The position numbers were made by a program, and so were the translations under genes. Below the pieces are notes generated by a model. That model was not told the origin of the DNA. It searched no databases and saw only the letters and a program-made list of their open reading frames with translations. A stretch of DNA of 64,000 nt, taken from positions 12,374-76,373 of the forward strand of contig DASYRF010000092.1 in NCBI GenBank assembly GCA_036004705.1, read 5' to 3'. This stretch comes from Myxococcota bacterium. GTDB taxonomy: Bacteria; Myxococcota_A; Polyangia; DASYRF01. How positions within the stretch are numbered: position 1 is the first letter of the stretch; each line of letters begins with the position of its first letter. Shown in pieces: positions 33,813 to 39,508 of the stretch.

Positions 33813-36224
33813 TCACAAGCAGCTGAAGAGCCCGCCGCCGACGTCGGTGCACGTCGTGCCGGGGCCGCAGGTGAAGACGACGCTCGTCGGGTCGCACGGC
33901 TCGCCCGGGTCGAGCGCGCCACTCACGCCGAGCTGGTAGGGACCGGTGCCGCCGCAGATGGCGTCGACGAACAGGAAATAGTCGCCCGCCGCCAGCGCGA
34001 TCACGATCTCGGAGGCGATGAAGCCCGGCGGCACGTTGTCGTTGCAGGCGAGCTCGCTCGACATCAAGTCGCACGTCGAGCGCAGGTAGAGCACCGTGTC
34101 GACGCTCGTGCCGCTGAGGTCGGTCGTGAAGGTCACCGTGGCGCTTCCCGGCACGTGGACGATGAAGACGTCCTCTCCGCTGGAGGCGCAGAACGACGCC
34201 GAGCACGTCCCCTCGAACGTCCCGCTGAACGAGACGATGCTGCCGGCGAAGAGCCCGCTGGGCGGGAGGTCCAGCAGCGACACGCCCGTGGTGCCGCAGA
34301 CGTTCAGCTCGGTGGCGTCGGCGGCGTACAGACAGCCCGGATCGGCGGGGTAGTCGGTGAGCGCGTCGCCGTCGTCGTCGGCGCCGTTCGCGCACGTCGC
34401 CGGCGCGATCGGGTCGGTCTCGTCGCCGTCGGCCGGGGCCGTACATCCTGGCTCGGCGGGGTAGTCGGTCACGGCGTCGCCGTCGTTGTCGGCGCCGTCG
34501 TTACACACGGCCGGCATGCAGGTGAACGCGCCCGTACCGCCCGGGTCCTGGCAGGTGTCGCCGTTGAGCGCGTCGCAGCTGAAGTTCACGACCGCCGGGT
34601 CGCACGGCGACCCCGTGACGTACACGCCCGAGACTTGTAGCTCGTACGATCCTGCCGCGCCGGCCATGCCGTCGACGAAGACGAAGTACGTGCCGGGCGC
34701 CATCGCCGGGAAGGTCAGCGTCGAGGCGGTCGTGATGAAGCCGCCGCCCTCGTTGTCGTTGCACCCCAGCTCCGAGGCGGTGCTGTCGCAGACGGTCCGC
34801 ACGTAGAGCCCCGTGTCGAACGTGGTCCCGGGACGATTCGTGGTGATCGTCACGTCGGCGGTGAAGGCCAGGTCGAACCCGTACACGGCTTCCGGCCCCG
34901 ATGGCGTGAACGACGCCGTGCAGCTCCCTTCGAAGTTGGAGACACCGGTCGTCATCCCGATGCCGCGCCCCATGGCGTCGAGCGAGTTGACCGGTACGCC
35001 GGCGATGCAGTCGTCTAGCTCCAGGACGTCGCCGGTGGCGTTGCAGCCGGGATCAGCCGGGTAGTCGGTGAAGAGGTCCGTGTCGTTGTCCAGGCCGTCA
35101 CAGCACTGCGGCGTCGACGCCGGATCGGTCTCGTCGTTGTCGTCCGGCGCCGCGCAGCCGCAGTCCCAGGGGTAGTCGGTGATGGCGTCGCCGTCGTTGT
35201 CGAACCCGTCCGAGCACTGGCCGGCGTTGCACACGAAGCCCAGCCCCGCAATGGGCTCGCTGCAGATCTGTCCGGTGGTGGAGTCGCAACGGAAGACCTG
35301 GTCGCCCGGCACGCACGTCTGGCCGGGCGCGATGATGCCGAAGGCGTGCAGGTACCAGGCCCCGGCGTCGGCGGCCGTCGACGCGTCGGCGAACAGGAAG
35401 TAGTCCCCCGCCGCCACGCTGGTCAGCTCCAGGAGGTTGCCCACGGCGCCCGTCGCGCAGTCCAGCTCCGTGCCGGAGTCGCCGCACGCCGTCTCCACGT
35501 AGATCACCGTGCTGAACGTCGTGCCGAACGTGTTCACCGACAGGAGCGACAACGTCACCGGCACGCTCAGCAGCCCCACGCCCTCCGGCCCCGCCCCGCC
35601 GCAGCTCCCCGTGAACAGCGACGGGTCGCCCGTCGCGCTCGTCCCGGTCAAGAGCCCCGTGGCCGTCATGTCCGTCACCGGCAGCAGCCCGGCGCAGTCG
35701 GGGATGTCGCTCTCCGACGGGTCCGTCGCGTCGTCGCACCCCGGGTCCGCCGGGAAATCGACGAGGGCGTCACCGTCGTTGTCGAACATGTCGTTGCACA
35801 CCGGGTCCATCGCCTCGCGCTCGTCGGTCACGCCGGCGCAGTCCGGGTCGGCGGGGAAGTCGGTCGCCCCGTCGCCGTCGTTGTCGATGCCGTCGCTGCA
35901 CTCCGGGTTCGCCTCGGATGTGTCGCTCGTGCTCGTGCATCCCGGGTCGGCCAGGTCGACCAGCCCGTCGGCGTCGTTGTCCAGCTCGTCGCCGCAGGCG
36001 GGCGCCTCGGTCTCGTCGTCGTCGGCGCCGTCCACGCAGCCCGGGTCGGCGGGGAAGTCCACGAGGGCGTCGCCGTCGTTGTCCACGCCGTCCGCGCAGG
36101 CCGGCGGGCCGCCCGCGTCCGTGCTTCCGCCGCCGCCGCTGTCGTCGTGGCGGTTCGTCGTGCAGCTCCCGCAGCCGGCGCCGCTCAGGGCCAGCGCCGC
36201 CGCCATTGCCACCGCTTTGCGCAT
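33813..36224 (-). CDS. Large modular lipoprotein A (803 aa): 8 CxDGxDNDxD-x3-D-x-P-x-DPGC modules alternating with 3 PPC-like beta-sandwich domains
   Basis: The true start is MRKAVAMAAALALSGAGC at 36224, with a GGGAGG RBS. The track ORF 33813..39515 fuses it to an out-of-frame shadow. GC3 is high. It is a paralog of the upstream gene. Confidence 0.85.
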   Translation of the reverse strand: MRKAVAMAAALALSGAGCGSCTTNRHDDSGGGGSTDAGGPPACADGVDNDGDALVDFPADPGCVDGADDDETEAPACGDELDNDADGLVDLADPGCTSTSDTSEANPECSDGIDNDGDGATDFPADPDCAGVTDEREAMDPVCNDMFDNDGDALVDFPADPGCDDATDPSESDIPDCAGLLPVTDMTATGLLTGTSATGDPSLFTGSCGGAGPEGVGLLSVPVTLSLLSVNTFGTTFSTVIYVETACGDSGTELDCATGAVGNLLELTSVAAGDYFLFADASTAADAGAWYLHAFGIIAPGQTCVPGDQVFRCDSTTGQICSEPIAGLGFVCNAGQCSDGFDNDGDAITDYPWDCGCAAPDDNDETDPASTPQCCDGLDNDTDLFTDYPADPGCNATGDVLELDDCIAGVPVNSLDAMGRGIGMTTGVSNFEGSCTASFTPSGPEAVYGFDLAFTADVTITTNRPGTTFDTGLYVRTVCDSTASELGCNDNEGGGFITTASTLTFPAMAPGTYFVFVDGMAGAAGSYELQVSGVYVTGSPCDPAVVNFSCDALNGDTCQDPGGTGAFTCMPAVCNDGADNDGDAVTDYPAEPGCTAPADGDETDPIAPATCANGADDDGDALTDYPADPGCLYAADATELNVCGTTGVSLLDLPPSGLFAGSIVSFSGTFEGTCSASFCASSGEDVFIVHVPGSATVTFTTDLSGTSVDTVLYLRSTCDLMSSELACNDNVPPGFIASEIVIALAAGDYFLFVDAICGGTGPYQLGVSGALDPGEPCDPTSVVFTCGPGTTCTDVGGGLFSCL

Positions 36225-36235
36225 CGTGCCTCCCG

Positions 36236-39200: not shown

Positions 39201-39508
39201 CAGCCGACGTCCATCGTGTCGATGTCGCCGTCGGCGTCGTTGTCGAGCCCGTCGCTGCATTGCGGGGGCTGGGTCTCGTCGCCGTCGGCGCCGTCCACGC
39301 AGCCCGGGTCGGCGGGGAAGTCGGTGAGCGCGTCGCCGTCGTTGTCCAGGCCGTCGCTGCACTGGGGCAGGCCGCCGCCGGAATCGGTCCCGGCGTCCAG
39401 ACCGTTGCCGCTCTTGCAGCCCCCGCACCCGGCCACCGCCAGGCCGGCGGCAAGCGCCACCGCCAGGCCACCCACACGGAGGAACGCGAATCGGAGGATC
39501 GTGCGCAT
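36236..39508 (-). CDS. Large modular lipoprotein B (1090 aa): 10 CxDGxDNDxD modules, 3 PPC-like domains and an extra C-terminal NIDO-like domain
   Basis: The lipobox is LAVAGC, and AAGGAG is the RBS. Repeated modules include QCSDGLDNDGDALTDFPADPGC. Beta-sandwich blocks include GTYFVFVDGMNGSTG(A/S)Y(R/E)L(E/Q)V(T/S)G. The C-terminus contains IGFSFDFYGTAYTSMNVGSNGKL. Confidence 0.85.
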   Translation of the reverse strand: MRTILRFAFLRVGGLAVALAAGLAVAGCGGCKSGNGLDAGTDSGGGLPQCSDGLDNDGDALTDFPADPGCVDGADGDETQPPQCSDGLDNDADGDIDTMDVGCSSPDDDSELNPECSDTIDNDGDGLIDFPADPDCVSVADTREAEDPVCSDMMDNDNDGRTDFPADPGCTDANDPSESDVADCGGLVPVTDMTMTGLLTGTSTVDDSSLFSGSCGGDGPEGIGFLNVSVPLTLLSVNTFGTAFDNAIYIRTDCGDTTSELACGTFLAGNSPVVELTGVAPGGYYLFADGATAANYGAWFLHAFGIIAPGQACTPGDLVFRCDSTSGQICSEPIAGMGFVCNAGQCSDGFDNDSDAITDFPLDPGCIEPADNDETDPIMTPQCYDGTDNDGDGFTDYPADPGCNATADDLEQDDCIMGVPLSVLAADGSATGSTSGVSNFEGSCTAGFTPSGPEVVYVFNLLYTADVTATTVFPATTMDTALYIRTVCDDTSTEVGCNDNDPMATFSSGSTIDLPGLAPGTYFVFVDGMNGSTGAYRLEVTGVFASGAPCDPMSTAFVCNASIGDACLDPGGTGAFACLPAECSDGADNDGDAVVDYPAEPGCLGPADSDETDPMTPPVCSDGVDNDGDTIIDYPGDPGCFYAADATEEDNCIPGVPFTELPPDGHYFGTIASPTGSFDGTCTVGFLPSSDEDIFILPVPSDATVTFTTALPGSGFTDTAIYLRSTCDDTTTEIGCNDNVPPTFTASTLVEVLTAGTYFLFVDGMNGSTGSYELQVSGLIGGGQPCDPADLIYTCDVAAGYVCMDPGTGTNVCVAGACSDTLDNDGDALADYPLDPGCTGASDTDETDPAVAPQCADGADNDGDALIDYPADTGCSAASDDDEACTVFGTDTYGYTGCEESLAVGMLPCADISASGTLVPSAGSCDDCYGSVPIGFSFDFYGTAYTSMNVGSNGKLVTTDATYTNSCLPYPSSGAMIDVWWDDLYTSGGTGGEGAWYALTGTAPNRIFEVQWLTPPCCSIGGDMIDVRVLLHETTNQIDVCYVDTTFGTSFSDNGASATLGIQNGAGSVVQYSCNSPVVTPGLLLHYVHP

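What the first reader, a model, noticed from the sequence alone, without database searches (positions are those of the whole stretch)
33813..39508. Tandem pair of giant paralogous lipoproteins built from alternating CxDGxDNDxD modules and beta-sandwich domains
Genes B (1090 aa) and A (803 aa) are 11 nt apart on the minus strand. They share the same module order. Four C-x-D-G-x-D-N-D-x-D-x3-D-x-P-x-D-P-G-C modules come first, followed by three rounds of a roughly 130-aa domain, a Cys-knot linker and two modules. The domain carries ...F(E/S)GSC...GPE...TTxxxxTxxDTxLYxRTxCD...CNDN...GTYF(V/L)FVDG...Y(E/R)LxVxG. Long stretches are identical between A and B, for example LHAFGIIAPGQ and ICSEPIAG(L/M)GFVCNAGQCSDGFDND. 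B carries an extra C-terminal domain with a NIDO-like FDFYGTAYTSMNVGSNGKL motif. The Asp-rich, disulfide-bracketed modules look like thrombospondin-type-3 or EF-hand-like Ca2+ sites. The same module occurs once in the VWA lipoprotein at 13192. I know of no characterised function for this architecture. It could be a Ca2+-dependent surface adhesin or matrix protein, and the repeats are a substrate for recombination-driven variation.
Basis: partly seen in the sequence, partly recalled or inferred. Interest (0 to 1): 0.7.

Follow-up and report, generated by a model that had tools for sequence, protein, structure and literature searches.

The report
Calcium-module surface lipoprotein pair, Myxococcota
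Two neighbouring genes of an uncultured myxobacterium encode very acidic, disulfide-rich lipoproteins built from catalogued parts (calcium-binding loops like the one in animal teneurins, collagenase-type binding domains, a nidogen-like end domain); they belong to a very large protein family that nobody has studied, so they are real and probably calcium-dependent surface or matrix proteins, but not a new kind of thing.

Summary
Gene A (33813-36224, 803 aa) and gene B (36236-39508, 1090 aa) lie 11 nt apart on the minus strand. They are colinear paralogues, 64% identical in protein and 74% in DNA.

All the parts are catalogued:
- **Acidic module.** It is NCBIfam repeat NF033662, with 8 copies in A and 10 in B. 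A profile of its 20-residue form hits the calcium-binding core of the teneurin-4 C-rich domain crystal structure (E 8e-6).
- **"Beta-sandwich".** It is a PPC / collagen-binding-type domain, by Pfam and by Foldseek (TM 0.78).
- **"Cys-knot linker".** It has only four Cys, so it is not a cystine knot.
- **B's extra C-terminal domain.** It is a divergent NIDO domain, shown through relatives.

Both proteins pass a lipobox rule, have pI about 4 and have even Cys counts in every block. Neither has an enzyme domain.

The family is very large (at least 25,853 cluster representatives), uncharacterised, and has no conserved neighbours. The duplication is old (dS about 0.56). The internal repeats show no homogenisation, so the recombination-driven variation idea is not supported.

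Best reading: calcium-stiffened, lipid-anchored, non-enzymatic adhesin or matrix proteins. Domain identities are shown here. Calcium binding, location and ligand are inferred.

The parts
36236..39508 (-). Gene B, 1090 aa lipoprotein precursor (stop codon at 36236-36238)
   Evidence: ORF. AAGGAG ribosome-binding site upstream. Identical to P0001, tagged VG389_05075 in a Myxococcota MAG.
33813..36224 (-). Gene A, 803 aa lipoprotein precursor (stop codon at 33813-33815)
   Evidence: Translation. GGGAGG in the 11-nt spacer. Corresponds to P0003, tagged VG389_05070.
39425..39508 (-). B signal peptide with lipobox LAVAG-C28
   Evidence: PROSITE-like lipobox rule met, Cys at residue 28.
36171..36224 (-). 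A signal peptide with lipobox LSGAG-C18
   Evidence: Lipobox rule met, Cys at residue 18.
38999..39361 (-). B modules 1-4 (aa 50-170): acidic disulfide-bracketed Ca2+-type loops with a period of about 33 aa
   Evidence: NF033662 hits. Coordinates. Module 2 is the 20-residue teneurin-like form.
38474..38998 (-). B block 1 (aa 171-345): divergent PPC-type sandwich plus 4-Cys knob
   Evidence: 8 Cys. PPC E 0.11. 71% identical to A block 1.
38300..38473 (-). B modules 5-6 (aa 346-403)
37763..38299 (-). B block 2 (aa 404-582): PPC / collagen-binding-type beta-sandwich plus 4-Cys beta-hairpin knob
   Evidence: AF2 model with pLDDT 92.4. Foldseek hits 5sv5, 2o8o and 1nqj with probability 1.00 and TM up to 0.78.
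37589..37762 (-). B modules 7-8 (aa 583-640)
37058..37588 (-). B block 3 (aa 641-817): PPC-type sandwich plus knob
   Evidence: 8 Cys. 46% identical to B block 2.
36884..37057 (-). B modules 9-10 (aa 818-875), absent from A
36239..36883 (-). B C-terminal NIDO-like all-beta domain (aa 876-1090, 10 Cys)
   Evidence: 12 of 37 homologous domains hit PF06119. AF2 pLDDT 91.9. No solved structural match.
35736..36098 (-). A modules 1-4 (aa 43-163). Module 2, CGDELDNDADGLVDLADPGC, is 14/20 identical to teneurin-4 C838-C857.
35217..35735 (-). A block 1 (aa 164-336): divergent PPC-type sandwich plus knob
35043..35216 (-). A modules 5-6 (aa 337-394), each with one extra Cys (DCGC and CCDG)
34506..35042 (-). 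A block 2 (aa 395-573): PPC domain plus knob
   Evidence: Pfam PF04151 E 4.4e-7, 31.1 bits against a cutoff of 25.9, residues 446-518.
34332..34505 (-). A modules 7-8 (aa 574-631)
33816..34331 (-). A block 3 (aa 632-803): PPC-type sandwich plus knob, forming the C-terminus of A
   Evidence: 10 Cys. 53% identical to B block 3.
13336..13395 (+). Single 20-residue module in the ORF 13192-14559 (putative VWA-like lipoprotein)
   Evidence: Regex hit. NF033662 E 8.5e-6, below the cutoff.

Best explanation
A and B form a two-gene operon. They encode paralogous, non-enzymatic, lipid-anchored proteins that act outside the cytoplasm of a Myxococcota bacterium.

Each protein is a chain of three kinds of part:
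1. **Acidic loops.** These are 20-21 residues long, closed by one disulfide, and followed by a linker with an invariant Glu. They are NCBIfam repeat NF033662. They match the calcium-binding core of the teneurin C-rich domain, whose first two sites are coordinated as in thrombospondin type 3 repeats. I infer that each loop binds about two Ca2+ and is ordered only when loaded. Pairs or quartets of loops would then act as calcium-stiffened spacers.
2. **Three beta-sandwiches.** These are of the PPC / collagenase collagen-binding-domain type. Each is followed by a small knob of four Cys. I infer that they bind a polymeric ligand such as matrix polysaccharide or protein, or a prey or substrate surface.
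3. **A terminal NIDO-like domain, in B only.**

The N-terminal lipid holds the chain at the envelope. Calcium keeps it extended. The sandwiches and the tip domain make the contacts. Together this describes a calcium-dependent adhesin or matrix scaffold.

Shown here: gene structure, paralogy, domain identities, the lipobox, even Cys counts and extreme acidity. Inferred: calcium binding and its stoichiometry, surface exposure, ligand and physiological role.
For: **Module**
- NF033662 scores 120.5 and 143.1 bits (cutoff 41), with 8 and 10 stretches.
- The profile of the 20-residue form hits teneurin-4 C-rich structure 7plp at E 8.2e-6. The alignment is ungapped across the whole Cys bracket, and 12 of the 14 PDB hits are teneurins.
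- A module 2 is 14/20 identical to teneurin-4 C838-C857.
- The positions of teneurin-4 ligands D840, D843, N844, D845, D847, D851 and D854, and of disulfide C838-C857, are conserved. In teneurin-4 this domain binds three Ca2+, and calcium stabilises the protein (PMC9058538).
- In an alignment not chosen by motif, the Asp, Cys and linker Glu columns are invariant.

**Sandwich**
- Pfam PPC is above threshold in A block 2 and reaches 4.6e-19 in homologues.
- The AF2 model has pLDDT 92.4 and pTM 0.80.
- Foldseek top hits are PPC and ColG/ColH collagen-binding domains, with probability 1.00 and TM up to 0.78.

**Extracytoplasmic character**
- The lipobox rule is met in A, in B and in 84 of 113 homologues.
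- Cys counts are even in every block, pI is 4.05, and D+E against K+R is 133:7 and 177:11.
- No catalytic domain is found.

**Precedent and selection**
- The PPC fragment of M. xanthus FibA sits in the extracellular matrix and is the spore cuticula Protein C (PMC3236237).
- dN/dS is about 0.5 between A and B.
Against: - There is no experimental evidence for any member of the family.
- The exact Dx[DN]xDG motif is kept in only 6 of 18 modules, because Gly is replaced by Ala, Thr or Leu.
- The common 21-residue FP form of the module does not reach significance against solved structures: teneurin E 0.69, calmodulin loop E 0.02.
- The teneurin ligand D856 position is usually Gly, and the second half of the C-rich domain (four more Cys) is absent.
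- Only one of the six sandwiches passes Pfam's PPC threshold.
- Neighbours say nothing about function: five related loci and this one share no genes.
- Lipoprotein sorting is unknown, so a periplasmic location is not excluded.
- AF2 models carry no ions, and I could not inspect coordinates.
Confidence: 0.5

Rival explanations
1. Self-assembling structural layer. The proteins would be building blocks of a cell-surface or spore-coat layer, held together by calcium and by contacts between PPC domains, rather than adhesins for a foreign ligand.
For: - The PPC-repeat fragment of FibA is a dominant spore cuticula protein (Protein C) and a matrix component in M. xanthus (PMC3236237).
- The two co-transcribed paralogues could co-assemble.
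- pTM of 0.80 for a whole multi-domain unit suggests a rigid rod.
Against: - An N-terminal lipid anchor and a distinct tip domain in B fit a projecting adhesin better.
- No assembly or export genes lie nearby.
- Nothing has been tested.
Confidence: 0.2
2. Cation sink. The proteins would mainly buffer or sequester divalent or trivalent metal ions (Ca2+, perhaps lanthanides or copper as proposed for MopE-type motifs) at the envelope, or nucleate mineral.
For: - Net charge is roughly -126 and -166, pI is 4.05, and there are 18 predicted metal loops.
- Tucker et al. aligned the related teneurin core with the MopE metal-binding motif (PMC3278476).
Against: - The loops alternate with three conserved beta-sandwich domains and a NIDO-like domain, all kept under purifying selection. 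A pure ion sponge would not need these.
- Pfam finds no MopE motif here, even at E up to 10.
Confidence: 0.15
3. Recombination-driven variable surface protein. The tandem genes and internal repeats would serve as cassettes that are shuffled to vary the surface.
For: Tandem paralogues with repeated modules. A third paralogue lies in the same MAG (P0002).
Against: - Internal repeats are 60-81% identical in DNA.
- The longest exact shared word between A and B is 40 nt, and dS is about 0.56.
- Same-position blocks are far more alike between A and B (53-71%) than blocks within a protein (31-46%), so there is no gene conversion or concerted evolution.
Confidence: 0.03
4. Classical PPC role. The sandwiches would be pre-peptidase C-terminal domains that help secretion of a protease and are then cleaved off.
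For: The Pfam PPC match and the fold match to protease-attached PPC domains.
Against: No peptidase domain is present in A or B, and the flanking genes are unrelated.
Confidence: 0.02

Closest known systems
Teneurin C-rich domain (human teneurin-4, PDB 7plp; Meijer et al. 2022, PMC9058538)
   Same: A 20-residue disulfide-bracketed loop, CxDxxDNDxDGxxDxxDPxC. The profile match is E 8.2e-6 and ungapped. A module 2 is 14/20 identical. Seven of the eight ligand positions inside the bracket and the bracket disulfide (C838-C857) are conserved. Two of the sites are coordinated as in thrombospondin type 3 repeats.
   Different: Teneurin has a single copy with six Cys and a conotoxin-like second half. 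Here there are 8-10 copies with two Cys each and no second half. Most copies carry a one-residue insertion ([FY]-P). The D856 position is usually Gly. The hosts are bacterial lipoproteins, not YD-shell proteins (no YD repeats).
NCBIfam NF033662, acidic double-disulfide repeat
   Same: A and B score well above the curated cutoff, with every module matched.
   Different: The model is only a naming repeat with no known function. Its name implies four Cys per repeat, whereas the copies here have two. In some homologues the linker does carry an extra CPxxxxCPxC pair (sequences).
Thrombospondin type 3 repeats / Dx[DN]xDG calcium loops, including the EF-hand loop
   Same: An Asp-rich DxDxDG core. The weak best hit of the 21-residue form is calmodulin loop II, DADGDGTIDFP. 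The motif binds Ca2+ in many folds (PMC3123361).
   Different: Pfam TSP_3 and EF-hand models give no hit. The model has no flanking helices. The motif is exact in only 6 of 18 modules.
PPC domain / collagen-binding domain of bacterial collagenases (5sv5, ColG 2o8o/1nqj, ColH 3jqw); M. xanthus FibA PPC repeats
   Same: The same beta-sandwich fold and a Pfam PF04151 match. FibA shows that PPC repeats can reside in the myxobacterial matrix and spore cuticula.
   Different: No attached peptidase. Four conserved Cys within the sandwich, and an appended 4-Cys knob. Sequence identity to solved domains is about 14%. The ligand is unknown.
NIDO domain (PF06119; nidogen, tectorin, mucin-4; bacterial exoproteins)
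   Same: B's C-terminal domain is homologous to domains that hit PF06119 (12 of 37, best 1.4e-8). It shares the FxFYG...NG and WDDL motifs.
   Different: B's own copy does not reach Pfam detection. No solved structure matches. The function of NIDO is itself unknown.
Calcium-rigidified repeat adhesins (RTX adhesin extender regions, cadherin linkers). Analogy only.
   Same: The proposed working principle is the same: calcium sites between beta-sandwich domains stiffen a long surface protein.
   Different: No sequence or fold relation was tested or claimed. The anchoring here is by an N-terminal lipid.

Membership tests
NCBIfam NF033662 acidic double-disulfide repeat | HMM score above the curated cutoff (41 bits) | tested here: met
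   A scores 120.5 bits (8 stretches) and B 143.1 bits (10 stretches).
NCBIfam NF033662 acidic double-disulfide repeat | Two disulfides (four Cys) per repeat, as the name implies | tested here: inconclusive
   Each module here has two Cys and a Cys-free linker. Matches cover model positions 5-29 of 32. The model consensus could not be inspected.
Teneurin C-rich calcium-binding domain | Significant sequence similarity across the Cys-bracketed acidic loop | tested here: met
   Profile A4 against 7plp gives E 8.2e-6, and 12 of 14 hits are teneurins. The 21-residue form alone is not significant (E 0.69).
Teneurin C-rich calcium-binding domain | Conserved Ca2+ ligand positions (D840, D843, N844, D845, D847, D851, D854, D856) and disulfide C838-C857 | tested here: met
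   All are conserved except the D856 position, which is mostly Gly. This is a sequence comparison only.
Teneurin C-rich calcium-binding domain | Six Cys forming three disulfides, with a conotoxin-like C-terminal half | tested here: not met
   The modules have two Cys and lack the second half.
Teneurin C-rich calcium-binding domain | Binds Ca2+ | not testable with these tools
   Needs ITC, crystallography or ion-aware modelling.
Thrombospondin type 3 repeat (PF02412) | Match to the family model | tested here: not met
   No Pfam hit at E up to 1 on the whole proteins or up to 10 on the isolated modules.
EF-hand | Helix-loop-helix around a 12-residue DxDxDG loop ending in Glu | tested here: not met
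   The modules are predicted as coil with no flanking helices. Only sub-significant loop matches to calmodulin were found.
[quoted passage not shown] | HMM above the gathering score | tested here: met
   A block 2 scores 31.1 bits against 25.9. The other five blocks are below threshold (13-14 bits or none). Homologues reach 4.6e-19.
[quoted passage not shown] | PPC / collagen-binding-domain beta-sandwich fold | tested here: met
   Foldseek: 5sv5 at E 2e-4 with TM 0.78; ColG and ColH collagen-binding domains with probability 1.00.
[quoted passage not shown] | Located C-terminal to a secreted peptidase | tested here: not met
   No peptidase domain in A or B, and none among the called neighbouring genes.
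NIDO (PF06119) | Match to the family model | tested here: inconclusive
   B's domain has no hit of its own. 12 of 37 aligned homologous domains hit NIDO, best 1.4e-8.
Cystine knot | At least six Cys forming three interlocked disulfides | tested here: not met
   The linker has four conserved Cys (C210, C219, C227 and C238 of alignment A2). Each block has 8 Cys, split 4+4.
Bacterial lipoprotein | Signal peptide ending in a lipobox with Cys at position 15-35 and a basic n-region | tested here: met
   A pattern rule recalled from PROSITE PS51257 is met at C18 in A and C28 in B. No dedicated predictor was run, and lipidation is untested.

The most novel reading that the evidence does not exclude
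The acidic module is a true homologue of the calcium-binding core of the animal teneurin C-rich domain. Myxococcota surface lipoproteins, with tens of thousands of proteins each carrying 4-32 copies, would then be its main natural reservoir. That would point to a bacterial origin for this teneurin domain rather than the diatom or algal origin that has been proposed. It would also define a large, unstudied class of calcium-stiffened surface proteins in predatory, social bacteria.
Probability: 0.35. Interest if true: 0.5.

Novelty: new member of a known kind. Interest (0 to 1): 0.33.

Why it matters
- **Size of the unknown.** The unit profile finds at least 25,853 cluster representatives, and 10,900 at E<=1e-10. 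The named ones almost all come from Myxococcota, and none has an assigned function. Even a basic result, such as calcium binding, location or ligand, would annotate a large block of 'hypothetical' envelope proteins in bacteria known for matrix building, gliding and predation.
- **Link to teneurins.** The module gives a simple, repeatable bacterial counterpart of the teneurin C-rich calcium site. This is useful for biophysics and bears on where that animal domain came from.
- **The pair itself is ordinary.** It is one old lineage-specific duplication within this family.

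Tried and rejected
- **Pfam on isolated parts.** The isolated modules and the two knob sequences gave no family even at E 10. 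That rules out filing the modules under TSP_3, EF-hand or MopE, and the knob under Stig1 or DUF4215.
- **Whole-protein search of solved structures.** phmmer gave only sub-significant hits: teneurin-4 at 0.068 and calmodulin at about 0.3.
- **Profile of the 21-residue FP form.** It was also not significant. Only the 20-residue form gave a significant teneurin hit.
- **NIDO-like model.** Foldseek found no PDB match, with the best E at 0.1.
- **Related loci in reference genomes.** The single-protein scan of genome contigs returned one distant locus from an unrelated MAG, so the species distribution in reference genomes was not obtained.
- **Third paralogue.** P0002 could not be located on a contig.
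- **Promoter and terminator scan.** Nothing above shuffle expectation.
- **YD/RHS repeats.** I looked for them in 280 family members to test a direct link to teneurin-like toxins and found none.
- **Teneurin-type modules with an internal Cys (DCxDPxC).** None in 280 proteins.
- **Conserved gene neighbourhood.** None in six loci.

Full report
**What is there**

- The region lies in DNA of about 70% G+C.
- Gene B is the ORF 36236..39508 on the minus strand (1090 aa). Gene A is 33813..36224 (803 aa).
- The two genes are separated by 11 nt containing GGGAGG. B is preceded by AAGGAG. This fits a two-gene operon.
- Both products are identical to database entries from one Myxococcota MAG, tagged VG389_05075 and VG389_05070.
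- A and B align end to end over 791 residues at 64% identity and at 74% DNA identity over 2271 nt.
The one correction is that A stops after its third domain and linker, so it lacks both the last module pair and B's C-terminal domain.

**The acidic module**

- NCBIfam model NF033662 ('acidic double-disulfide repeat') matches A at 1.6e-35 with 8 stretches and B at 1.4e-42 with 10 stretches. Positions are listed.
- In 894 copies from 120 homologues the consensus is PxCx[DN]GxD[ND]DGDGxxD[YF]PxDPGCxxxxDxxE. The Cys and Asp positions were fixed by the search pattern. The Glu eight residues after the second Cys was not, and it is found in 100% of copies.
- In an alignment not selected by motif, the Asp, Cys and Glu columns are invariant.
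- Pfam sees nothing in the modules, even at E 10.
- The whole protein and the common 21-residue form give only sub-significant hits to solved structures: teneurin-4, and calmodulin loop II DADGDGTIDFP.
- A profile of the 20-residue form, which includes module 2 of both A and B, hits the teneurin-4 C-rich domain crystal structure 7plp at E 8.2e-6. The alignment is ungapped over the whole Cys bracket, and 12 of the 14 listed PDB hits are teneurins.
- A's module 2 is 14/20 identical to teneurin-4 C838-C857.
- In teneurin-4 this domain binds three Ca2+. The ligands are D840, D843, N844, D845, D847, D851, D854, D856 and E835, plus backbone carbonyls. Two of the sites are coordinated as in thrombospondin type 3 repeats, and calcium stabilises the protein (PMC9058538). 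All of these positions inside the bracket except D856 are conserved here, as is the C838-C857 disulfide.
The modules are not members of either family: there is no TSP_3 or EF-hand match, and the model has no flanking helices.
- Tucker et al. had already linked the teneurin core to a diatom glucosidase, a Volvox gametolysin and the MopE motif, and proposed an algal source (PMC3278476). They did not mention the bacterial repeat.

**The repeated domain and the linker**

- An AlphaFold2 model of B residues 341-645, built with 39 aligned units, has pLDDT 92.4 and pTM 0.80. The modules are coil, the domain is a beta-sandwich, and the linker is three short strands.
- Foldseek against the PDB returns these top hits, with probability 1.00 and TM up to 0.78:
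  - the PPC domain of Bacillus anthracis collagenase (5sv5);
  - the collagen-binding domains of ColG and ColH.
- Pfam PPC is above threshold in A block 2, weak in the other blocks and strong in homologues, some of which also carry galactose-binding-like domains.
- Each block has eight Cys: four conserved in the sandwich and four in the linker. With only two possible disulfides, the linker is not a cystine knot.

**B's C-terminal domain**

- It has no Pfam hit of its own.
- 12 of 37 homologous domains match NIDO, best 1.4e-8.
- The model is confident (pLDDT 91.9).
- It has no counterpart among solved structures.

**General character**

- Both proteins pass a lipobox rule, with the Cys at residue 18 in A and 28 in B. 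So do 84 of 113 complete homologues.
- Mature A and B have pI 4.05. D+E against K+R is 133:7 in A and 177:11 in B. They have 46 and 56 Cys, with even counts in every block.
- No catalytic domain is present.
- These are features of oxidised, extracytoplasmic, non-enzymatic proteins.

**Family and context**

- The full-length search found more than 2,176 relatives. Those with names come from Myxococcota, Kofleriaceae, Polyangia and Bradymonadia MAGs.
- The unit profile finds 25,853 representatives at E<=1e-3 and 10,900 at E<=1e-10.
- Homologues carry 4-32 modules, with a median of 12.
- The pair is flanked by a divergent hydantoinase/oxoprolinase gene and a convergent AurF-like gene. A TetR gene and lipid-metabolism genes lie beyond.
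- Five homologue loci have unrelated neighbours and no tandem paralogue.
- The same MAG has at least one more paralogue, P0002 (70% identical to B).

**History of the duplication**

- dS is about 0.56 and dN/dS about 0.51.
- The longest exact DNA word shared by A and B is 40 nt.
- Internal DNA repeats are 60-81% identical.
- Same-position blocks are 71, 61 and 53% identical between A and B, against 31-46% between blocks within a protein.
- The internal triplication therefore predates the gene duplication, and nothing has homogenised the repeats since. The 'substrate for recombination-driven variation' idea has no support.

**Interpretation**

- The best-supported model is a lipid-anchored chain. 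Calcium-loaded module pairs act as stiff spacers between PPC-type binding domains, and B carries a NIDO-like tip. This describes a calcium-dependent adhesin or matrix scaffold.
- A myxobacterial precedent for PPC repeats in the matrix and the spore cuticula is the FibA fragment known as Protein C (PMC3236237).
- Rivals are a self-assembling surface or coat layer, a cation sink, and, far less likely, variation cassettes or protease pro-domains.
- Calcium binding, exposure and ligand are all inferred.

**Verdict**

- The finding is real, and its description is largely right.
- Every part is catalogued and the family is very large. This is a new member of a known kind, not a new architecture.
- The most interesting by-product is the significant match between the bacterial repeat and the teneurin C-rich calcium core.

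Noticed in passing
window 11359-16619 (+): A run of genes on the same strand: an ECF-type sigma factor (11359-12195), an Ala/Pro-rich ORF with no family match (12131-13195), the single-module lipoprotein with weak VWA/MIDAS-adhesin similarity (13192-14559), signal peptidase II LspA (within 14084-15274), and prolipoprotein diacylglyceryl transferase Lgt (within 14988-16619). A module-bearing lipoprotein therefore sits directly upstream of the lipoprotein-processing genes.
   Followed up: partly
window 35043-35216 (-), gene A residues 337-394: Modules 5 and 6 of A each carry one extra Cys (DPGC has become DCGC, and QCYDG has become QCCDG). B has none at these positions. Two extra Cys in adjacent modules suggest an additional inter-module disulfide, which would mean neighbouring modules pack against each other.
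   Followed up: no
window 36159-36173 and 39413-39427 (-), just after the lipobox Cys: Both mature proteins begin C-G-x-C (CGSC in A, CGGC in B). If the first Cys is lipidated, the second has no obvious partner, because every other block has an even Cys count. It could form an intermolecular disulfide, perhaps between A and B.
   Followed up: no
window 33813-39515 (-) and other frames across the region: The frame of gene A stays open upstream right through gene B, giving a spurious 1900-aa ORF. Several other ORFs of 200-1200 aa overlap on both strands. These are artefacts of about 70% G+C, not genes.
   Followed up: yes
window 33809/33813: The convergent AurF-like di-iron oxygenase gene (32757-33809, +) ends 3 nt before the stop codon of gene A (33813). 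No terminator-like hairpin lies between them.
   Followed up: partly
L005 6001-8589 (JGI sample 3300036860, contig Ga0376048_0000839): A further relative, P0038 (862 aa, 50% identical to B, not among the proteins that matched the NIDO-like C-terminal domain), comes from the same metagenome sample as the window's contig. It sits alone next to the mur/ddl/ftsQ/ftsA cell-wall cluster. It may be another paralogue in the same organism or may come from a relative.
   Followed up: no
homologues P0010, P0080, P0059 and sequences printed: In many relatives the module linker carries an extra CPxGxxCPxC pair, giving four Cys per repeat. This probably explains the 'double-disulfide' name of NF033662. Some relatives also swap PPC blocks for galactose-binding-like domains (GBD_T9SS_assoc).
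   Followed up: partly
window 39617-43111 (+): A fused hydantoinase A / hydantoinase B (oxoprolinase-type) gene of 1164 aa is transcribed divergently from gene B, 108 nt away. G+C rises to 0.77-0.79 across it.
   Followed up: no
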